Source: Flavobacterium sp. (GTDB lineage Bacteria > Bacteroidota > Bacteroidia > Flavobacteriales > Flavobacteriaceae). From it: a stretch of DNA of 50,397 nucleotides. Positions 1,890-14,700 of this stretch are shown in pieces; position 1 is the stretch's first letter; each line of letters opens with the position of its first letter. The stretch lies in NCBI RefSeq assembly GCF_044368625.1, contig NZ_JBIPPD010000001.1, forward strand, positions 1 through 50,397, given 5' to 3'. Below the pieces are notes generated by a model. The model did no database searches and was not told the origin of the DNA. It saw only the letters and a program-made list of their open reading frames with translations. Position numbers and translations under genes: made by a program.

Positions 1890-2444
1890 ATGGATTTAAT
1901 AATAGAAACGCCAAGATTATTACTTCGCAAAATGCGTCTTGAAGATGCTGAAGCTTTATTTGAAATGGACAAAAATCCAGAAGTGCATAAATACCTTTGG
2001 CAACAACCATTTACTGAAATTCAAGAAATTGAAGCTTATATTGAAATGGTTAATAATCAATATCTGACTAATAAAATTGGTCGTTTTTCAACCATTCTTA
2101 AAGAAACCAACGCGCTTATTGGATGGACCGGAATTAAATATGTAAACGACCACGTCGAGAATGGCAACACCAATTTCTATGACTATGGGTATCGATTGAA
2201 CCAAAAATTTTGGAACAAAGGCTACGCCACCGAAGCTTCAAAAGCATGGCTGGAATATGGATTTAACCAAATGAACATCGAAGAAATGAATGCTTACACC
2301 CATGCTGAAAATGGCGCTTCCAATCGAGTTTTAGAAAAAGTTGGATTTACTTTTATCGAAAATTATCCCGACAAAGACGGTGTGATTTGGAAATGGTGGC
2401 AAATGAAAAATGATGGTTTTTACAACTTTCTGAATAAATCTTAA
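1890..2444 (+). CDS. GNAT N-acetyltransferase, RimJ/RimL type
   Basis: IETPRLLLR start; WNKGYATEA; NGASNRVLEKVGF. Confidence 0.9.
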   Translation: MDLIIETPRLLLRKMRLEDAEALFEMDKNPEVHKYLWQQPFTEIQEIEAYIEMVNNQYLTNKIGRFSTILKETNALIGWTGIKYVNDHVENGNTNFYDYGYRLNQKFWNKGYATEASKAWLEYGFNQMNIEEMNAYTHAENGASNRVLEKVGFTFIENYPDKDGVIWKWWQMKNDGFYNFLNKS

Positions 2445-2460
2445 AAATGAAATACGGAAT

Positions 2461-2486
2461 GAGATTGCTTCATTCCTCGCAATGAC
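2461..2486. repeat. Single arm of a REP-like intergenic repeat
   Basis: GAGATTGCTTCATTCCTCGCAATGAC resembles a recurrent bacterial intergenic palindrome arm (recalled, not searched). It abuts the next ATG. Confidence 0.55.
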
Positions 2487-3335
2487 ATGAAAAAAATAAA
2501 AATAGCAGGAGTTCCCGAACATTTCAACCTTCCGTGGCAACTAGCCATCGAAAACAACGAGTTTACGGATTACAACATTGATTTAGAATGGACAAATGTA
2601 CCTGAGGGAACAGGTAAATTGTGCGAAATGCTTCGCAGCGGCGAAACCGATTTGGCCGTAATACTAACCGAAGGGATCATCAAAGACATTTTGGCTGGAA
2701 ATCCATCGAAGATTGTTCAAATTTATGTCAAGAGTCCGCTGATTTGGGGAATTCACGTTGGTGCAAATTCAAGTTTTAAAACCGTTTCTGATTTAAAGGA
2801 TACTCGAGGAGCGATTTCCCGCAGAGGTTCGGGATCCGAATTGATGGCGTATGTCAACGCTCACAACCAAAAATGGTCCACTGAAAATTTGAAATTTGAA
2901 ATAGTAAATACCATCGATGGTGCGGTTGAAGCATTGACGAACGAAAAAGCCGATTATTTTATGTGGGAACGTTTCATGACCAAGCCATTGGTTGATCAAG
3001 GTATTTTTAGACGATTAGACGATTGTTTGACACCGTGGCCGAGCTTTGTAATTGTTGCCACTGATGATTTACTTAAAAATAGTCCAGAAGTAATTCAAAA
3101 AACACTGCAAATCATCAATTTTAAAACAAAAAAATTTAAAGAAATTCCTGGAATAACTGCAACAATTGCCGAACGTTTTCATCAAAAAATTGAAGATATA
3201 GAACATTGGATTAGTAGAACCGAATGGTCTCAGGAATCAATGGATCAGGAAATGTTAAACAATGTTCAAAATCAACTCTTTGAATTCGGCATTATCAATA
3301 AAAAAGGTACTTTTGCTCAACTAGCGATTCGCTAA
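2487..3335 (+). CDS. Type 2 periplasmic-binding-fold protein (NMT1/TauA-like), no signal peptide
   Basis: GVPEHFNLPW, GTG, LTEG, ISRRGSGS, FMWERF and TPWPSF pattern. Confidence 0.75.
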   Translation: MKKIKIAGVPEHFNLPWQLAIENNEFTDYNIDLEWTNVPEGTGKLCEMLRSGETDLAVILTEGIIKDILAGNPSKIVQIYVKSPLIWGIHVGANSSFKTVSDLKDTRGAISRRGSGSELMAYVNAHNQKWSTENLKFEIVNTIDGAVEALTNEKADYFMWERFMTKPLVDQGIFRRLDDCLTPWPSFVIVATDDLLKNSPEVIQKTLQIINFKTKKFKEIPGITATIAERFHQKIEDIEHWISRTEWSQESMDQEMLNNVQNQLFEFGIINKKGTFAQLAIR

Positions 3336-3356
3336 AAGTTGCCTTCCCATTGATTT

Positions 3357-4289
3357 ATGATTCAAGAAACAAGACAGAAATTACAAGTTCTTCGAAGTAA
3401 ATTCCAGCTGCAAAAGCCTTGGAACAACATTGTAATTTTTATACTTAACATTTTGATTTCCATTCCCGTTTTCATTATCATTCATCAAAACATAATTGAT
3501 CCTGAATGGCCACTACAAATTGATAGAATCCTACTATTTATACTCTTACTAGTTCTTATTCAACTTGTATTGAGAATGTTACAAACGATTATGATTATTT
3601 GTATGGGTTTGTATTTACTCGTTTTACTGTATGGAACAACTATTGGAAATTATGGTTTTAGCGAAGTTATTGAGGATTATCGCTCGATGATGTACCTGAT
3701 GCTCGATGATGCCAATCCGCAGGATTTAATTATTTCGAAACTGCTTCCTTTTCCCAATAAATCAAAAATTTTAAACGCCATTGATTTTCAAAATTCCAAA
3801 GTTCGAAATTTTGCTGTAATGGCCACAACCGAGAATTTTAGAGACATTAAGGGCTATAATGAGTACCGAAATACCATTCAGTGTTTTGCTGTTTTTAAAA
3901 AAATAAAAGAAAATTGGAATTATGTGGACGATCCAAAAGGCAGGGAATACATTGCAGCAGCAAGCGAATCAGTTCTTCATTTTTCGGGTGATTGCGACGA
4001 TCATGCGATATTGATGGCGGCTTCTATTCGAGCGGTTGGCGGGACTCCACGGCTTATTCATACCGGTGGTCATATTTACCCTGAAATGCTTATTGGAAAC
4101 AAAAAAGATTTAGAAGCCATCAATTACCTTATTAAAGAAGTACTATTTAAAAACGAAAGTAAAGGCAAAAAAATCCATTATCACATTGACGAACGCGGTC
4201 AAATTTGGCTCAATCTTGATTATACCGCACGCTACCCTGGAGGTCCATTTATGTCGGAAGAAATTTTGGGGGCGCTGACGTTGAATTGA
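3357..4289 (+). CDS. Membrane-anchored transglutaminase-like protein
   Basis: Three N-terminal hydrophobic segments; Cys-His-Asp triad in GDCDDHA, GHIYPE and WLNLDYT. Confidence 0.8.
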   Translation: MIQETRQKLQVLRSKFQLQKPWNNIVIFILNILISIPVFIIIHQNIIDPEWPLQIDRILLFILLLVLIQLVLRMLQTIMIICMGLYLLVLLYGTTIGNYGFSEVIEDYRSMMYLMLDDANPQDLIISKLLPFPNKSKILNAIDFQNSKVRNFAVMATTENFRDIKGYNEYRNTIQCFAVFKKIKENWNYVDDPKGREYIAAASESVLHFSGDCDDHAILMAASIRAVGGTPRLIHTGGHIYPEMLIGNKKDLEAINYLIKEVLFKNESKGKKIHYHIDERGQIWLNLDYTARYPGGPFMSEEILGALTLN

Positions 4290-4380: not shown

Positions 4381-4418
4381 AACCAACTGCAAAAGAGGAT
4401 TGCAGTTGGTTGTTTTTT
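4381..4418. terminator. Bidirectional intrinsic terminator
   Basis: 12-bp stem AACCAACTGCAA / TTGCAGTTGGTT with T-run, between convergent genes. Confidence 0.85.
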
Positions 4419-5158
4419 TATTCTATTTTACAAACTTTTTTACTTATAATTTCGGTCTTACAAATAGCAGCACCTCCGTTTTCTTTAGTACCATAGGCAT
4501 ATAAACTATTTCCCCATGTAAATCCCCAATTTCCTACTTGAGTACCATCAGCGGGGTATGGACTTACGCTAAATGGGGAGCAAACTAATTTTTTGCATCT
4601 ACCATCTGTAGTAATACCACCTTCTTGGTTTGTAGTGTTTGACATCCATCCACTGGGGCATTGACAAGTAGTTTTAGTAATTTCTGGTTGATTAACCAAC
4701 CTTCCAATAGCTTGATCTGAATTATAGTTTTTAATACCAACTGCACTGTAAGCCCTAATTACTGTTCCGTTTGCTGCTCCATTTGCACATGCACAATCCG
4801 CAATTTGTTGTTTTTCGGCTATTGATAAACTTACTGCTGCATCTGAACATCTACGTTGACAATCTTTCCTATTAGTATCATTTTCAGGGAATGTTCCGGT
4901 ATACGTTTTATTGACCCTTCCAGTTAAATCCATACAAACTCCTGCTCGATCTTTTTTATCAGTTAAATCAGTATATGAAACAACACAAAAACAATTAGCC
5001 TTTGGTAATTTTATTTTAGAAACAGAAGAAACTTTAGTATCATTTTTAGTTTCTTCTATATTGACATTAGATTTATTTTGTTTTGTGTCTTGACCTTGAA
5101 GACTGTTTATAAAGAACAAGAAAGTGATAATAATGCATATTTGGTTTAGTAATTTCAT
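4418..5158 (-). CDS. Secreted cysteine-rich hypothetical protein
   Basis: Sec signal (..SLQG|QD); 13 Cys in the mature part, including three CxC pairs. No family recognised. Confidence 0.8.
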   Translation of the reverse strand: MKLLNQICIIITFLFFINSLQGQDTKQNKSNVNIEETKNDTKVSSVSKIKLPKANCFCVVSYTDLTDKKDRAGVCMDLTGRVNKTYTGTFPENDTNRKDCQRRCSDAAVSLSIAEKQQIADCACANGAANGTVIRAYSAVGIKNYNSDQAIGRLVNQPEITKTTCQCPSGWMSNTTNQEGGITTDGRCKKLVCSPFSVSPYPADGTQVGNWGFTWGNSLYAYGTKENGGAAICKTEIISKKVCKIE

Positions 5159-5178
5159 AATTGTTGTATTTTAATTCT

Positions 5179-5208
5179 CACCTACTCTATTTACTCTTTT
5201 CGGTTGCC
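5179..5208 (-). promoter_or_regulatory. Conserved 5'-leader hairpin, copy 2
   Basis: Minus strand GGCAACCGAAAAGAGTAAATAGAGTAGGTG; stem ends 21 nt before ATG 5158. Confidence 0.65.
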
Positions 5209-5232
5209 TAGTTTTTTAAATTTTATCTTTTC

Positions 5233-5913
5233 TTATTTACAATCTTTCAAAAGAAAACATCTACATTTTGGATTTTCCCTACAAGCAAAAACATCAATAT
5301 TTAACCCGATAGTAGTTCCAAGTGAACTTGCGCTTGCTTTTACTCTAAGTGCCATTTTGTTAAAAGTTGCAACCCTAACACTTGCATCAACCTGCCACAT
5401 TCCCACAACACTTTTATCTTTAGCTTCATATACTGTTTCTAGAAATAAATCTTGTTCATAAGCATCTACTCTGATGTAGTTGGGTGATGGGTTCATCCCT
5501 ATTCCAGCCATAGCATTGAATTCAAATTGATGTTTTTTTCCTAATTTTATGCTTGGTCCAGTCATTACAGAAATTTGTGACCATGATATAGAACCTGGTG
5601 GATTTGGAATAGGAATGTATCTTGGTGGTGTTTTTCGTTTTCTAGTAATACTTGCAACTCCATCGTTATCAAGAGAGCCTGTAGAAAAGCCAATTCTTGA
5701 AGCAATTCCCCAAGTATCACCCCAACGTTGTCCGATACCAAAATTTACACCGTTGCCTGCAAATAGAGGTCGACTTGGATTTTGATTTTCTTTTAAAGAA
5801 GAAAAGGTGTAACCTGCATCCAAACTAAATTGATGGTAGGGTTCCCATTTTTTTTGAGCAAAGCTCATTGCTGTTACGAATAGCAATGCGATGATTGTGA
5901 TTTTTGTTTTCAT
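5233..5913 (-). CDS. Secreted protein, probable outer-membrane beta-barrel with Cys-rich tail
   Basis: Signal peptide (..SFA|QK); amphipathic strands (FSLDAGYTFS, FEFNAMAGIG); tail CRENPKCRCFLLKDCK. Confidence 0.65.
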   Translation of the reverse strand: MKTKITIIALLFVTAMSFAQKKWEPYHQFSLDAGYTFSSLKENQNPSRPLFAGNGVNFGIGQRWGDTWGIASRIGFSTGSLDNDGVASITRKRKTPPRYIPIPNPPGSISWSQISVMTGPSIKLGKKHQFEFNAMAGIGMNPSPNYIRVDAYEQDLFLETVYEAKDKSVVGMWQVDASVRVATFNKMALRVKASASSLGTTIGLNIDVFACRENPKCRCFLLKDCK

Positions 5914-5932
5914 TATAATTAGTTTTTTGTTT

Positions 5933-5962
5933 TCCCTACTCTAATAGCTTTTCGGGTTTCGC
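5933..5962 (-). promoter_or_regulatory. Conserved 5'-leader hairpin, copy 1
   Basis: Minus strand GCGAAACCCGAAAAGCTATTAGAGTAGGGA; stem ends 20 nt before ATG 5913. Confidence 0.65.
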
Positions 5963-6177
5963 TTTGATGCTTTAAAAGCACATTACAAAACTGCAAACTA
6001 TCTAAAAATCAATTGATGCGTGATTAACTAAAAATGATTGGGTGGTTTAACTGCAATTTTTACCGTTTAATAACGGATGTAAAAAAGAGTCTTTAGCGGA
6101 ATGAAAATAATTTAGAATATTGTTACTTTGAATCGTAATAAAAACTAATTTTAACATAAAATTTAAATCTTCAAAAT

Positions 6178-6927
6178 ATGAAAAGCAAACTTTTAACTAT
6201 CGCCTTTGTAGTCTTGGCAATTGCCTTTGGAACGTATGTGTATCATTTTCCGCCAAAAATTGCCGAACCAGTGGCTCCAATGCCTAATGAAAATAACACA
6301 TGTACTGATTATTCGACCTCCCAAAAAAGCAAGTTGACCTCTGGACTAGTGTTTGACATGGTTCAAATGTACCGAAACAATCAATTAATGAATATTCAAG
6401 ATTTAAACGCCAGGAAAGTCATCAATGAAGATGCCTACAGTATTTGGTTTGATCTTGACACTCTAAAAAAATTCATTTACCATTTTGAAAAAGATATAAA
6501 TCAAAACAAGACGTATGCAAAAAACAAGAAAGGTATTCGAATTTATTATGCAGCTTATCCTGAAAAAATAGAAGAATGGAAAACAATTCCCGAATACAAA
6601 GACATTGCATTTATGGCAGATGATCCTTTCAAAAAAAGTTATGAAAAAAAACATACATTGGTCATGATTCCAACCTTGCAAAGCAAAGAGGGCAAAATTT
6701 ATGATATCAACTTATTTGAACCCAATACTTTCGTAAACGGCATTTCAAAAAAAGAATATACCAATAGAAACGGAAGTATGCTCAACATTTTTAGACCAAA
6801 ACCCCTGTATTCACTACTTCCAGCTTCGAGTGCAAGAGTAGCGCGACCAAATCCTGAAGAAGAAATTGCTGCGAGAAATCACGGTACTTTAGTGCCACCG
6901 GATTCCAAAGCTGGTTCTGGCTTTTAA
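6178..6927 (+). CDS. Exported/membrane-anchored hypothetical protein, candidate signal or signal precursor
   Basis: N-terminal hydrophobic anchor; blocks SIWFDLDTLKKFI, GIRIYYAAYP, HTLVMIPT and C-terminal NHGTLVPP; first gene of the two-component operon. Confidence 0.75.
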   Translation: MKSKLLTIAFVVLAIAFGTYVYHFPPKIAEPVAPMPNENNTCTDYSTSQKSKLTSGLVFDMVQMYRNNQLMNIQDLNARKVINEDAYSIWFDLDTLKKFIYHFEKDINQNKTYAKNKKGIRIYYAAYPEKIEEWKTIPEYKDIAFMADDPFKKSYEKKHTLVMIPTLQSKEGKIYDINLFEPNTFVNGISKKEYTNRNGSMLNIFRPKPLYSLLPASSARVARPNPEEEIAARNHGTLVPPDSKAGSGF

Positions 6928-6936
6928 TTTTAAATT

Positions 6937-7584
6937 ATGTACAGCATCCCACCTATTCTTAAAGATTTACTTCAACTTTGCGAATTTATCGCGTTGTTTT
7001 TTGGCGTATTAAAATTCAATTCTTTAAAAAATTCCTACTGGAAATGGTTTGTTTTTTATTTGCTTTACATCTTTACCTATGAAATTTTTTGCCGTGTTTA
7101 TCTATCAACTTTTGAAACAGAAATTCGATTATTTTTATCGCTAATTCAAATTCCTTTCGAATTTCTCTTTTTCTTTTGGTTGATTGGGTATCAATCGCTA
7201 CAACGAAAAACACTTTTTTGGTGCATAACAGCTGTATATTTATTGTCTTTTGGTATTGAAAATTATGCTTTTGATGAGGCTAAATACAGTTTTAAATCAT
7301 TGAGTCAATCTTTTGGAACTTTGCTCATGCTGATTCTCGTTGGTTTAGAATTTGTAAAACAAATTAAAAGCGATGACATTTTAAGTTTTACCTCTAACAA
7401 AATGTTTTACATCAATTTGGGAGTCATTCTTTTTTATATAGGCAACATGCCTTTTTTTGGACTTTACAATTTAATTTTAGATCATCCAGAAATTTGGAAT
7501 GGGTATTACAAATATTTTATGATTTCAAACTGTAGTATGTATTTATTATTTGCAGCATCTTTTATATGGGGGAAAATCAAATAA
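6937..7584 (+). CDS. 7-TM integral membrane protein, candidate sensor subunit of adjacent kinase
   Basis: About seven hydrophobic segments in 215 aa; overlaps the kinase start by 19 nt. Confidence 0.75.
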   Translation: MYSIPPILKDLLQLCEFIALFFGVLKFNSLKNSYWKWFVFYLLYIFTYEIFCRVYLSTFETEIRLFLSLIQIPFEFLFFFWLIGYQSLQRKTLFWCITAVYLLSFGIENYAFDEAKYSFKSLSQSFGTLLMLILVGLEFVKQIKSDDILSFTSNKMFYINLGVILFYIGNMPFFGLYNLILDHPEIWNGYYKYFMISNCSMYLLFAASFIWGKIK

Positions 7585-8357
7585 TTATTGCCATTATATT
7601 ATTTAACTTATTCTTTTTGCTGTTTATCGTTGGCATTATCGTTTTCATCCAACAATATAAACTAAAGAAGAAAGAACACCTTGCAACGCTTACATTTCAA
7701 CAAGAAAAACATCAAAAAGAACTACTCGAAAATCAAATCGAAATTCAAAACCAAACTATGCAGCACATTGGGAGGGAAATTCATGACAATGTGGGTCAAA
7801 AACTGACACTTGCAAGTTTGTATACCCAACAATTGGCTTATGAAAACAAAGCGCCTCAGATCAATGAAAATATCGAAAATATCAGCCAAATCATTAACGA
7901 GTCGTTAGCTGATCTAAGAGAATTATCAAAATCATTAACCGATGATTCGATTTCTAAAAATTCGATTTACAAACTGATTGAAAACGAAGTCAGGAGAGTT
8001 CAAAAAACGCAAAAATGCGCCATTACATTTGTTTCTGGTAAGTTAAAAGTAGTCCTAAACAATCAACAAAAATCAATTTTACTCAGAATTTGTCAGGAAT
8101 TTATACAAAATAGTTTGAAACATGCACAATGTAAAACAATTAAAATTGAACTGAAAAAAAATGACAATGAGTTGCTTTTTAAGCTTCAAGACGACGGAAT
8201 CGGATTTGACGCTTCAAAAACATCAAATGGGATTGGTATAGAAAATATAAAGAAAAGAACAAAAATTTTGAATGGTAGTTGCAATTTGTCAAGCAATGCT
8301 CAATCCGGTACTTGCTTACTAATCTCGATTCCTTTACACTCAAATGAACTTAGATAA
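7566..8357 (+). CDS. Histidine kinase, HisKA_3/NarX class, single TM, no sensor domain
   Basis: H-box REIHDNVGQ, N-box QEFIQNSLKHA, G-boxes DDGIGFD and GIGIENI. Confidence 0.95.
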   Translation: MGENQIIIAIILFNLFFLLFIVGIIVFIQQYKLKKKEHLATLTFQQEKHQKELLENQIEIQNQTMQHIGREIHDNVGQKLTLASLYTQQLAYENKAPQINENIENISQIINESLADLRELSKSLTDDSISKNSIYKLIENEVRRVQKTQKCAITFVSGKLKVVLNNQQKSILLRICQEFIQNSLKHAQCKTIKIELKKNDNELLFKLQDDGIGFDASKTSNGIGIENIKKRTKILNGSCNLSSNAQSGTCLLISIPLHSNELR

Positions 8358-8359
8358 AA

Positions 8360-9004
8360 ATGGAAAACTCAATTGTAATTGTAGACGATCATGTTTTAAT
8401 AGCAAAAGCGTTAAGTGGTATTATTTCAAATTATGAAAACTTTCGCGTATTGTATGAGTGCGAAAACGGAAAAGAGTTAATAGAAAAATTAAAATTTGAA
8501 AAAAACTGTCCAAAAATAGTTTTACTCGACATCAGCATGCCTGTAATGGACGGTTTTGAAACTGCAAAATGGCTCAAAGAAAATCATCCTGAAATTAAAA
8601 TCATGGCGTTGAGCATGCAGGACGATGATCAAAGTGTGATTAAAATGATTAAAAATGGTGCTCACGGCTATTTACTCAAAAATACACATCCCGCACATTT
8701 AGAGCAGGCCATGTTAAAATTAGTTCAAGATGGATTTTATTACCCCGAATGGGCGTCAAAAATAGTATTTTCAAGCTTAAATTCGACTGATTCTCGTCAA
8801 GCAAATTTTCCGAAATTGACCGAAAGAGAGAAAGAATTTTTGAAATATTCCACTTCTGAAATGAATTACAAAGAAATTGCCGAGAAAATGTTTTGCAGTC
8901 CTCGAACGATTGAAAGCTACAGAGACCATTTATTCGAAAAATTAGAAATTAAAACCCGTGTGGGACTAGCTGTTTTTGCAATAAAAAATGGATTTTCGGA
9001 CTGA
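8360..9004 (+). CDS. NarL/LuxR-family response regulator
   Basis: IVDDH, LLDISMPVMDG, GYLLK receiver motifs; LTEREKE..EIAEKMFCSPRTIESYR HTH. Confidence 0.95.
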   Translation: MENSIVIVDDHVLIAKALSGIISNYENFRVLYECENGKELIEKLKFEKNCPKIVLLDISMPVMDGFETAKWLKENHPEIKIMALSMQDDDQSVIKMIKNGAHGYLLKNTHPAHLEQAMLKLVQDGFYYPEWASKIVFSSLNSTDSRQANFPKLTEREKEFLKYSTSEMNYKEIAEKMFCSPRTIESYRDHLFEKLEIKTRVGLAVFAIKNGFSD

Positions 9005-12440: not shown

Positions 12441-14700
12441 ATTAAAAATATTCTGGTTCTATTTACTTTTTTAATTACCAATACCGTTTTTTCTCAGGAT
12501 AATTTTACACAAAAGAAATTGGATTCTATAGAAACGAAACTTTCGAAAGTAAGTAACGATTCGATTCGATTAACAATGATGCTTGGCTTGGGAAGGGATT
12601 ATGCCTTACATGCCAACAAGCGAAATTTAGAATTCAATCAAAAATCCATCGAACTTGCTCAAAAACTCAATCGCCCTTTAGGTATTGCAGAAGCATATGC
12701 AAACTATGGATTGTATTACGAAAGAATAAATGATACACTCAAACAGAAAGAATATTTAGAAAAGATACTTGTATTGGGACAAGAAAAAAAAGACAATAGG
12801 GTTCTTGGAAAAGCATATTTTGAGAAAGGATTTTATTATTGGAATAGAAAAAATCTTCGTAAAACAAATCAATATTTAGAACGGTCTATTGAATTTTATA
12901 AAAAAACAAAAGATAAAAACAGCCTTAGCGAAGTTTATTTGCAAATAGGATTTTTACATCAAGAAGAATTTAAAGATTACAATAAAGCCTTGTTTTATTA
13001 CAGAAAGCATATTGATTTATTTGACAAGGACGACTTTCAACTGATCAACACCTACTCTACAATAGCGAGCATTTATACGATACAATCCAAATATCAAAAG
13101 GCATTGGAATATTACATGCTTTCGGACAAATTATTTAAAAAACACAAGGCCACAGACTCTTTTCATTATGCCCTTTTACAAAGCAAATTGTCCACCGTAT
13201 ATCAAGAGTTGGAAGAATATGACAAAAGCTTAAAATACCTGAGTTTTTCTTTAAAATATTTTTTAAGTAAACAAGATTATCGTGCATCATCTGTACTCTA
13301 TGCCCAACAAGCGGCCTTGTACTTGAAAATGAAAGATTCAAAAAATACCCTAAAAAGTATCGAATCAGCTGCTGAAATTTCTGAAAAAATAAAGAATTGC
13401 GTACAGAAGGAAAACGCCTATTCTGCCATTGCTTATCTATTTTATGATATGAAAAATTATGCAAAAGCATTAGAATTTCATCTCAAATCATACAAAGAAT
13501 GTCCGCTAAATACACCTTATAAAGATATAGAAACGCAAGAATTCAATATCGGAGCGACGTACCTAATGCTAGCCAAAAATCTCGATCAAACCACAAATAC
13601 AACTGCTGCTGTTCCAAAAAATAAAATGGTCTTTTACAACTTGGCGAGAACTATTTGACCCGTGTTATGGAAAGTGCAAAAATAAATTCGAACATTTCAC
13701 TTCTAAATAATTGCTACCTCCATTTGTCGGAAATTGCTGATTTGCAAAACGACAAAAGGAAAGCTTTAGATTATTATAAACAACATATTATTTACAAAGA
13801 CAGCTTAGCAACCATTGAAAACCGTGAATTGCTGGTTCAAAACCAAATGCAATTTGAATTTGATCAACAGGAAAAAGTGAGGGTTGCTGAACAAGAAGTC
13901 AAAGATGCTTTGTCCAGAGAAGAGTTGACCAAAGAAAAAAACAATAGAAACCTGGCCTTGGGTGGAATTGGATTTTTTGTCGTTGTAGCTGGATTTTCTG
14001 CTTTTGCATATGTTCAGAAAAGAAAAGACAACAAAATTATCTCCGAAGAAAAACAAAAATCAGACGATTTATTATTAAACATTTTACCTGCTGAAATTGC
14101 TCAAGAACTGAAAGAAAAAGGCACTTCTGAAGCCAAACATTTTGAGAGTGTTTCGATAATGTTTACCGATTTTAAAGACTTTACCAAACTTTCTGAAAAA
14201 ATTCCTTCGACAGAATTGATTCAAGAATTAAATTACTGTTTCAAAGAATTTGACAACATCATTACCAAACACGGTGTCGAAAAAATAAAAACCATTGGAG
14301 ATTCGTACATGGCGGTTTGTGGACTTCCTGCAAAATATGGCAATCACGCCCAAAAAATGGTGGATGCTGCTTTGGAAATTCGAGATTTTATTGAAAAATA
14401 CAAAGAGAAACGACAAGAAGAAGGAAAATCATTTTTTGAAATGCGAATCGGCATCAATTCGGGCGAAGTTTTGCTGGAATCGTGGGAATTAAGAAATTTG
14501 CCTACGACATTTGGGGTGATGCCGTAAATACCGCTTCGCGAATGGAAAGCAATGGCGAAATTGGTAAAGTAAATATCAGCGAAGCCACCTATAATTTGGT
14601 TAAAAATAATTTCTCGTTTGATTACCGAGGCGAAATGGACGCCAAAGGAAAAGGGAAAATAAAAATGTATTTCGTTGAACCTAAAGAGAATAACGTATGA
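12441..14700 (+). pseudogene. TPR-sensor, single-TM class III adenylate cyclase, disrupted (ATT start plus two 1-nt deletions)
   Basis: Three overlapping ORFs join into signal peptide, TPRs, TM, LLLNILP, FTDFKDFT, KTIGDSYM, RIGINSGEV and YDIWGDAVNTASRMES. 2260 nt + 2 nt = 754 codons. Confidence 0.85.

What the first reader, a model, noticed from the sequence alone, without database searches (positions are those of the whole stretch)
4418..9004. Candidate undescribed signalling system: exported NHGxxxPP protein + 7-TM receptor + sensor-less kinase + LuxR regulator, divergent from secreted Cys-rich genes
Seen: four tightly coupled genes (gaps of 9, -19 and 2 nt). The kinase has one TM and no input domain, and the overlapping 7-TM protein is the obvious missing sensor. 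The first gene is exported and has no recognisable family. Two secreted-protein genes with a shared leader motif are transcribed divergently. Established: HisKA_3 kinases pair with NarL-type regulators, and Gram-positive peptide quorum systems (agr, comQXPA) encode signal, polytopic kinase and regulator together. Inference: a Bacteroidota protein/peptide-signal circuit (quorum, kin or contact sensing) with a split receptor controlling secreted products. I cannot confirm novelty without a search.
Basis: partly seen in the sequence, partly recalled or inferred. Interest (0 to 1): 0.85.

Follow-up and report, generated by a model that had tools for sequence, protein, structure and literature searches.

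The report
Kin-specific tail-peptide receptor signalling cassette
A four-gene unit of flavobacteria and their relatives pairs an ordinary kinase and regulator with two uncatalogued proteins, a precursor-like protein whose 16-residue tail co-evolves with a seven-helix membrane protein, and it likely works as a self-amplifying, kin-specific peptide signal, a kind of communication best known from Gram-positive bacteria.

Summary
The four genes are real and coupled as described. They keep their order in 76 of 80 related loci; the other four are cut by contig ends. Gene A (6178) ends in a fixed 16-residue tail, NHGxLxPP…F. Gene B (6937) folds as a seven-helix bundle. Neither has a catalogued family.

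The tail tracks B, not A's own core. In 48 close pairs, all 19 with a diverged B also had a changed tail. Tail residue T237 and B residue 67, at the outer end of helix 3, co-vary far above other tail pairs, in two clades and in independent pairs. A conserved palindrome upstream of A sits in an array centred between two mirror-image promoter-like elements. Three complete genomes carry one A but two different B types.

Best reading: an agr-like, self-inducing, kin-specific peptide circuit built from unrelated parts. Binding, release and trigger are untested, and one genus mostly lacks an export signal on A.

The divergent genes are exchangeable cargo. Only one is Cys-rich, and their shared leader is Rfam DUF805b. 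This scan noted Cys-tailed sister cassettes on other DNA before.

The parts
6178..6927 (+). Gene A: 249-aa putative signal precursor (N-terminal hydrophobic anchor or signal, GxRxY core with no fold match, low-confidence linker, C-terminal tail)
6877..6927 (+). Codons of the 16-residue tail N234-F249 plus stop; T237 (6886-6888) co-varies with B67
6937..7584 (+). Gene B: 215-aa stand-alone seven-helix membrane protein, putative receptor; residue 67 (7135-7137) lies in the predicted outer half of helix 3
7566..8357 (+). HisKA_3 histidine kinase with one TM helix and no input domain; H-box His73; overlaps B by 19 nt
8360..9004 (+). NarL/LuxR-type response regulator (REC with Asp57, GerE HTH)
6061..6078 (.). 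Conserved palindrome (CCGT-N6-ACGG core), predicted operator of the cassette's own regulator
6018..6099 (.). Array of four operator-like sites at a 23-bp period (one strong, three degenerate), centred between the two promoter-like elements; the degenerate sites were read by eye
6123..6130 (+). Degenerate Bacteroidota -7-like element predicted to drive A-B-HK-RR
   Evidence: consensus from PMC6847099
5986..5993 (-). Mirror-image degenerate -7-like element predicted to drive the divergent genes
5933..5965 (-). DUF805b RNA motif (Rfam RF02914) in the leader of 5913
5233..5913 (-). Signal-peptide outer-membrane beta-barrel protein (PF13505); exchangeable cargo
5179..5213 (-). Second DUF805b-like motif (below the family cut-off), in front of 5158
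4418..5158 (-). Signal-peptide protein with 14 Cys and no family; exchangeable cargo
4381..4411 (.). 12-bp hairpin between the converging genes, likely terminator

Best explanation
The cassette is likely a self-amplifying, kin-specific peptide signalling circuit: the 16-residue tail of protein A is predicted to be the ligand of the seven-helix protein B, which would act as the detached sensor of the one-helix kinase. Inferred steps: A is made as a precursor whose folded core may hold the tail. A cut in the unconserved linker, or at the near-invariant Asn, would free the tail. The tail would enter B from the periplasmic side, residue +3 near B67. B would switch the kinase, and the phosphorylated regulator would bind the palindrome array and turn on both its own operon and the divergent cargo genes. 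Tail and receptor are exchanged between close relatives as matched pairs, which gives specificity groups. Shown: gene order, tail-B co-variation, matched divergence, conserved palindrome and mirror promoter-like elements. Not shown: binding, cleavage, export, direction of regulation, trigger.
For: Order A-B-HK-RR in 76 of 80 loci. Tail is exactly 16 residues from Asn to the end in 142 of 234. Across 137 g14 loci tail distance follows B's outer half (rho 0.45) more than A's core (0.09, 0.24) or the regulator (0.13). In 48 disjoint close pairs: B diverged and tail changed 19 of 19; B conserved and tail changed 8 of 29; adjacent linker 9 of 19 against 10 of 29. Variable tail codons are non-synonymous in 46 of 290 when B is kept and 124 of 190 when B differs; linker 120 of 290 and 101 of 190. 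Coupling of tail+3 with B67: z 14.1, raw 2.84, against 1.14 for the next tail-B pair and 1.09 for the best tail-core pair. It ranks first in one clade and second in the other; in-clade shuffles reach 4.4-4.8. Of 16 independent pairs, 8.3 go the same way and 0.3 the other (median p 0.008); the best of 108 other B columns differs by 3.5. Perfect palindrome in 59 of 96 and 84 of 135 upstream regions, against 0.1-0.2 expected from shuffles. Mirror TTTG elements in 62 and 68 of 74 non-g14 loci. Three single-contig genomes have one A and two B types; in two of them the extra B is 91-93% identical to another species' B and differs between the two at 24 synonymous against 5 non-synonymous codons.
Against: In genus g14, 134 of 137 A copies have no hydrophobic N-terminus, so the route of the tail to B's predicted outer face is unexplained. 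No peptidase or exporter family recurs with the cassette among the 30 largest neighbour clusters of 80 loci. Tail and B are adjacent genes, so block-level co-transfer alone is expected from linkage; B's inner half tracks the tail as well as its outer half in close pairs (rho 0.86 against 0.80). Only one residue pair stands clearly above the shuffle level, and 16 of 67 Thr tails still go with Tyr67. Eight of 29 pairs changed the tail without a large change in B. The regulator-residue/box match (79 of 79) rests on only 1-2 independent changes. AlphaFold places part of the tail as a strand in A's own model, which also fits a tethered role. N-out topology rests on a modest charge bias.
Confidence: 0.5

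Rival explanations
1. Kin-damage alarm: same ligand-receptor pair, but the caged tail is released only when a cell is lysed or its envelope is cut, so neighbours of the same group sense damage rather than density.
For: Signal-less, hence probably cytoplasmic, A in 134 of 137 g14 loci, while the co-varying B residue lies in the predicted outer half; no recurring exporter or peptidase; orphan receptors. Precedent for kin lysis as a signal: PMC4348357 (abstract read).
Against: 108 of 120 non-g14 copies have a hydrophobic N-terminus and need no lysis. Predicted autoinduction of A fits a density circuit better. Divergent cargo seen is not obviously defensive.
Confidence: 0.2
2. Tethered accessory subunit: A stays attached and its tail docks on B within the same cell, as an agonist or inhibitor, in the manner of auxiliary proteins of intramembrane-sensing kinases (SaePQ, LiaF; recalled). 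The real stimulus would be envelope stress or a small molecule.
For: Membrane anchor or lipobox in most non-g14 copies; conserved folded core with invariant residues; no processing gene. Earlier scan notes e1-7238427, e1-7237281 and e1-5213671 read sister cassettes this way.
Against: It does not explain some 37 B clusters with type-specific tails in one genus, nor intact orphan receptors of another group. A signal-less A cannot reach an outer pocket while tethered.
Confidence: 0.2
3. B is an AgrB-like processing or export enzyme for the tail, and the kinase takes its input elsewhere.
For: AgrB also co-varies with its substrate (PMC10482373, passages). It would supply the missing export step.
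Against: No Cys or His among B's invariant or near-invariant columns. The kinase has no input domain. Orphan B copies are kept without a substrate.
Confidence: 0.05
4. Linkage only: tail and B travel together because they are adjacent, and do not interact.
For: Divergent tracts begin at about the tail and run through B into the kinase's first helix.
Against: One position pair co-varies repeatedly on a B tree built without those columns. The equally adjacent linker shows no association in the two-way count. Tail codons are constrained within a B type.
Confidence: 0.05

Closest known systems
agrBDCA of staphylococci (PMC10482373, passages read)
   Same: Four-gene operon of precursor, membrane protein, kinase and regulator; divergent promoters; positive feedback; a hypervariable block spanning signal and sensor that defines specificity groups.
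   Different: No detected homology of signal or sensor. The sensor is a separate seven-helix protein, the kinase is HisKA_3 and the regulator NarL-type. The precursor is a 150-260-aa folded protein with a C-terminal tail and no conserved Cys. No AgrB-like enzyme. Gram-negative host.
ComQXPA of Bacillus (PMC4008528, abstract start seen in the listing; further details recalled)
   Same: Four adjacent same-strand genes; signal is the C-terminal part of a precursor; NarL-type regulator and pherotypes (recalled).
   Different: No isoprenyl transferase and no conserved Trp in the tail. Sensor and kinase are separate genes. The precursor is far larger.
SaePQRS and LiaFSR auxiliary-protein systems (recalled; named in earlier scan notes)
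   Same: One-helix or minimal-sensor kinase with operon-encoded membrane and exported partners.
   Different: No family hit to their partners. Here a short tail and the membrane partner diversify as matched pairs.
N-acyl-cyclolysine signalling of Bacteroidota (Linares-Otoya 2025; seen only as described and cited in PMC13419125; paper not held)
   Same: Cell-cell signalling in the same phylum.
   Different: That signal is a small acylated metabolite; this cassette encodes no recognisable synthase.
Peptide-activated GPCRs and adhesion-GPCR tethered agonists (structures listed; mechanism recalled)
   Same: B superposes on GPCR bundles over about 190-210 residues (Z 10-12.3, rmsd about 4). The co-varying residue lies at the outer end of helix 3.
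   Different: 4-14% identity; Z is below the tool's bar for helical bundles, so descent is not shown. Output is a histidine kinase.
Cys-tailed (PCPPxC) Bacteroidota sister cassettes (unpublished scan notes)
   Same: GxRxY core and [N/D]-x5-PP-type tail upstream of a 7TM gene, kinase and regulator; profile match of 92% to the Cys-tailed L102 protein, tail included.
   Different: This branch lacks the tail cysteines, ends in a fixed aromatic residue, has a larger core and is often membrane-anchored. The Hymenobacter-like L100 protein was not matched (1.9%).

Membership tests
agr | AgrB-family peptidase with Cys-His dyad | tested here: not met
   No AgrB hit for B or its 111 aligned rows; no conserved Cys or His in B
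agr | Short AgrD pro-peptide with conserved Cys forming a thiolactone | tested here: not met
   A is 249 aa; the tail has no conserved Cys
agr | Polytopic sensor fused to the kinase; LytTR regulator | tested here: not met
   One-helix HisKA_3 kinase and GerE regulator
agr | Hypervariable block covering signal and sensor, giving specificity groups | tested here: met
   (sequence pattern only)
agr | Autoinduction from divergent promoters | tested here: inconclusive
   Conserved palindrome and mirror elements; regulator-box match has 1-2 independent changes; no expression data
ComQXPA | ComQ isoprenyl transferase and conserved Trp in the signal | tested here: not met
   No such hit among cassette genes; no Trp column in the tail
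HisKA_3/NarL two-component system | HisKA_3 + HATPase_c kinase with H-box His; REC + GerE regulator with acceptor Asp | tested here: met
   His73 and Asp57 read in the sequence
Catalogued 7TM sensor domains (HisKA_7TM, 7TMR-DISM, MASE) | Profile match to the family model | tested here: not met
   0 of 111 rows match any such Pfam model at E 0.01; one Atlas cluster carries only an automatic name of this kind
GPCR-like 7TM fold | Structural superposition clearly above unrelated helical bundles | tested here: inconclusive
   Z 10-12.3, rmsd about 4; Foldseek best E 0.37
Peptide quorum sensing (functional class) | Diffusible self-made peptide that activates the cognate receptor with cell density | not testable with these tools
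   Needs peptide detection and reporter assays
SaePQRS/LiaFSR-type auxiliary systems | Homology of the auxiliary proteins to SaeP/SaeQ/LiaF | tested here: not met
   No Pfam or NCBIfam hit over cut-off for A or B
DUF805b RNA (RF02914) | Score at or above 35.6 bits | tested here: met
   5933-5965: 41 bits; the second copy, 32.3 bits, falls short

The most novel reading that the evidence does not exclude
A Gram-negative peptide-pheromone system of a new build: a protein of unmatched fold cages its own C-terminal ligand, and release by proteolysis or kin lysis activates a stand-alone GPCR-shaped receptor that drives a histidine kinase in trans. It has dozens of specificity groups within one genus, a readable ligand-receptor code (tail+3 against helix-3 residue 67) and eavesdropping orphan receptors.
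Probability: 0.45. Interest if true: 0.92.

Novelty: categorically new. Interest (0 to 1): 0.82.

Why it matters
A 2026 review lists small molecules as Gram-negative signals and peptides for Gram-positives (PMC13419125, passages). If the reading holds, this is a peptide language in Bacteroidota, present in 142 of 151 genomes of one genus and patchily elsewhere (18 of 401 across the phylum). It is directly testable: the ligand candidate is a genome-encoded 16-mer that can be synthesised, the receptor residue and operator are named, and natural cognate and non-cognate pairs exist. It would also give a bacterial model of a GPCR-shaped peptide receptor wired to a kinase, and a set of orthogonal signal-receptor pairs. 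The rating 'categorically new' refers to the signal and receptor families and the split-sensor build. The logic converges on agr, and the kinase and regulator are ordinary.

Tried and rejected
Complex prediction of B with A residues 220-249 (paired alignments of 111 rows): no verdict, score 0.02 against a mark of 0.32.

Fold searches for A found nothing clear: Foldseek no E at or below 0.001, best Z 4.0; PDB sequence search best E 0.22. The Atlas gave only unnamed Bacteroidota clusters. A catalytic role of A's core could not be examined because no coordinates were returned.

No B-kinase or A-B fusion among proteins of 390-2000 aa; the tool calls this weak evidence.

One metatranscriptome run gave 9 low-depth contig pieces, 5 of them 95-99% alike; it cannot show level, strand or operon structure.

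The metagenome scan with the kinase gave few close relatives; most of the 80 loci were unrelated kinases and dropped out at parsing.

B-kinase couplings were not used: the top one (B214-H4) is the gene overlap.

A genome-wide regulon in G000 was not found: the only strong intergenic matrix hit is the site itself, which was in the training set (the assembly has 384 contigs).

The sigma-70 scan is not informative for this phylum.

Nine literature searches (listings and abstract starts only) showed no description of this cassette. Most subscription journals are not covered. The supplement of PMC5737381, which I expect to describe DUF805b (recalled), could not be read, and its main text does not mention it.
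Full report
OBSERVATION. The six ORFs and the gaps of 9, -19 and 2 nt are as reported. The kinase has one hydrophobic helix followed by HisKA_3 and HATPase_c with His73; the regulator is REC + GerE with Asp57. A (6178) and B (6937) have no Pfam hit over cut-off and no NCBIfam, PHROGs or PADLOC hit, and no PDB sequence relative. Each is single-copy in the own genome. Of the divergent genes, 5913 is an outer-membrane beta-barrel with 4 Cys and 5158 has 14 Cys and no family. Their shared leader is Rfam DUF805b.

CONSERVATION. A scan of species genomes with A's alignment confirmed 297 stretches and kept the best 80. In 76 of them all four genes follow in order, two with the regulator cut by the end of the locus; the other 4 stop at a contig end. 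Named hosts include Flavobacterium, Aquimarina, Tenacibaculum, Pedobacter, Kordia and Dokdonia. B matched 18 of 401 genomes across the phylum, 35 of 301 in the own genus and 142 of 151 in genus g14, which I call Chryseobacterium-like from its similarity to named proteins. A's profile finds 1,067 clusters at 50% identity. I parsed 257 loci as A-B-HK-RR, the window included, and set aside 27 with other or cut layouts. Weak B relatives also have GxRxY proteins upstream, with tails that grade into the Cys type. Profile matches are 95% for L101 (core only), 92% for L102 (tail included) and 1.9% for L100. This is therefore the cysteine-free branch of a cassette that earlier unchecked scan notes met on other genomes; no note matched A's sequence.

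ANATOMY. A models at pLDDT 86: N-terminal helix, an alpha/beta core, a low-confidence stretch at 218-233, and a tail modelled with more confidence, with a strand at 237-239. Invariant among 91 rows are twelve core residues and N234, H235, G236, P240, P241; in g14 the His varies. Of 244 proteins, 234 have NHG, and 142 of these end exactly 16 residues from the Asn; the last residue is Phe in 139 and Tyr in 31. By a crude hydropathy rule, 108 of 120 non-g14 copies have a hydrophobic N-terminus (12 with a lipobox-like pattern, some probably false), but 134 of 137 g14 copies have none; only one of those could gain one from an upstream start. B models as seven helices at pLDDT 91 and superposes on GPCR-type bundles at Z 10-12.3, which the tool says may be only a common arrangement. 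Loops 1, 3 and 5 hold more Lys+Arg (2.6, 3.1, 2.9) than loops 2, 4 and 6 (1.4, 1.8, 1.2), and loop 5 is the most conserved loop. I infer N-out topology and a kinase-facing loop 5.

THE TAIL GOES WITH B. Over 137 g14 loci, tail distance correlates with B's outer half (0.45) more than with B's inner half (0.29), A's core halves (0.09, 0.24) or the regulator (0.13). I took 48 disjoint pairs whose kinase and regulator differ by at most 8%. All 19 with B over 15% different had over 25% of variable tail positions changed, against 8 of 29 with B conserved. The adjacent linker showed no such split (9 of 19, 10 of 29). I set these thresholds, and several pairs reflect the same swap, so the p-value overstates. 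In L201 against L264, core, kinase and regulator differ by 1-3%, B by 39% and the variable tail by 64%. Divergent DNA tracts start near the tail, cover B and end in the kinase's first helix (22 chosen pairs). Variable tail codons differ non-synonymously in 46 of 290 cases when B is kept and 124 of 190 when it is not (linker 120 of 290 and 101 of 190).

Adjacent genes travel together, so I tested single residues. In a mean-field coupling analysis of 246 loci (11 dropped for lacking the tail pattern; effective number 103), tail+3 with B67 scored z 14.1, raw 2.84; the next tail-B pair scored 1.14, the best tail-core pair 1.09, the best tail-kinase pair 0.77. Gln, Asn, Gly, Asp or Glu at +3 goes with Tyr67 in 72 of 74 distinct rows; Thr goes with a non-Tyr residue in 51 of 67. 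The window has Thr and Leu. The pair ranks first outside g14 (z 5.8) and second within it (5.2); two in-clade shuffles reach 4.8 and 4.4. On a B tree built without columns 63-72, 16 independent pairs gave 8.3 concordant and 0.3 discordant (median p 0.008, range 0.001-0.125); no other of 108 B columns exceeded a difference of 3.5. The position was chosen from the same data, so this checks independence from phylogeny and is not a fresh sample. Other top pairs (B72, B188, B119, B13, B174) are mostly in predicted outer halves but near the shuffle level.

ORPHAN RECEPTORS. Three single-contig g14 genomes carry two B genes 52-58% identical to each other but only one A. In two of them the extra B is 91-93% identical to the B of L278, whose tail they lack, and the two copies differ at 24 synonymous and 5 non-synonymous codons. 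A kept receptor for someone else's tail favours a signal between cells. It rests on two or three genomes.

REGULATION. A perfect CCGT-N6-ACGG or GGGT-N6-ACCC palindrome lies about 105-115 nt before A in 59 of 96 non-g14 and 84 of 135 g14 regions. Shuffles give 0.1 and 0.2; a control stretch in the regulator gene gives 0 and 10. Regulators with Ser in the recognition helix go with the CCG box and those with Asn with the GGG box in 79 of 79 unambiguous non-g14 loci, but this is only 1-2 independent changes. In the window the strong site (6061-6078) is one of four sites at a 23-bp period, three of them degenerate and read by eye. The array is centred between mirror TTTG elements at 5986 and 6127. 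These resemble the Bacteroidota -7 element TANNTTTG with one mismatch each (PMC6847099, passages). They recur at fixed distance in 62 (left) and 68 (right) of 74 non-g14 loci; in g14 the left one occurs in 3 of 93 and the right one in 56 of 93. A divergent ORF was called in 61 of 74 loci, some calls probably spurious. Of 38 of those 61 scanned, 8 carry a T9SS sorting tail and 22 have no Pfam hit. The bidirectional switch is conserved in this clade, and the cargo is not.

MECHANISM. I commit to a self-inducing, kin-specific peptide circuit (0.5): precursor A, released 16-mer, receptor B, kinase, regulator, operator array. That the tail contacts B is common to the three leading readings (about 0.9 together); release between cells is common to two (about 0.7). 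Open against it: no export signal in g14, no recurring peptidase or exporter among the 30 largest neighbour clusters, one strong residue pair only, and no experimental data. Rivals are a kin-damage alarm (0.2; precedent PMC4348357, abstract only), a tethered accessory subunit (0.2), an AgrB-like role for B (0.05) and linkage alone (0.05).

COMPARISON AND NOVELTY. It works like agr (operon layout, divergent promoters, hypervariable signal-sensor block; PMC10482373, passages) but fails agr's and ComQXPA's defining components. It is a true HisKA_3/NarL pair with uncatalogued input proteins. Nine searches of the held literature (listings only) showed no description. The library lacks most subscription journals, including the 2025 paper on N-acyl-cyclolysines, and the DUF805b source supplement could not be read; either may bear on novelty claims. 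Statements on SaePQ, LiaF, ComQXPA details and adhesion GPCRs are recalled.

VERDICT. Observation confirmed with two corrections; interpretation partly supported and sharpened; interest 0.82.

Noticed in passing
L286:- and L290:- (A-B-B-HK-RR), L291:- (B-A-B-HK-RR): Extra intact receptor gene of another type (52-58% identical to the resident one) in genomes with a single A; possible eavesdropping receptors.
   Followed up: yes
L008:5195-6738 and L081: Two different A genes in tandem before one B; the first is a lipoprotein. Its tail type matches neighbouring loci L007 and L009, so it may be a relic of a swap.
   Followed up: partly
proteins P0350, P0355, P0016: A homologues with two core domains. 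In P0350 and P0355 (lipoprotein-like) only the second core carries the tail, so a core can exist without one.
   Followed up: no
G000 C79:9405-9440, C79:10492-10524, C46:1178-1212; window 5179-5213, 5933-5965: DUF805b motifs sit in front of each gene of tandem pairs of signal-peptide proteins, and in 35 of 74 divergent slots by pattern. They may mark exchangeable gene cassettes rather than only regulate.
   Followed up: partly
L001-L109, divergent slot: Highly variable cargo: of 38 scanned, 8 have T9SS sorting tails, plus an M43 peptidase, a DUF2589 protein, a collagen-repeat protein and beta-barrels. L020 holds a 91-aa ORF that looks like a natural-product precursor (recalled resemblance).
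   Followed up: partly
L281:- 2327-3751: The kinase gene is interrupted after 127 codons; a broken copy or a sequencing error.
   Followed up: no
L094-L102, L233-L240, L350-L352: Distant cassettes with other tails; an Asn or Asp six residues before a Pro is kept in most. Some have two or three 7TM genes per kinase.
   Followed up: partly
window 12519-14527 (+): Two overlapping ORFs (TPR-like, then one TM and an adenylate/guanylate-cyclase-like part, judged by eye) that look like one frameshifted gene.
   Followed up: no
genus g14 loci L085, L086, L286, L290, L291: The cassette sits directly behind a clpB-like gene (recognised by eye) and lacks the divergent promoter element (3 of 93).
   Followed up: partly
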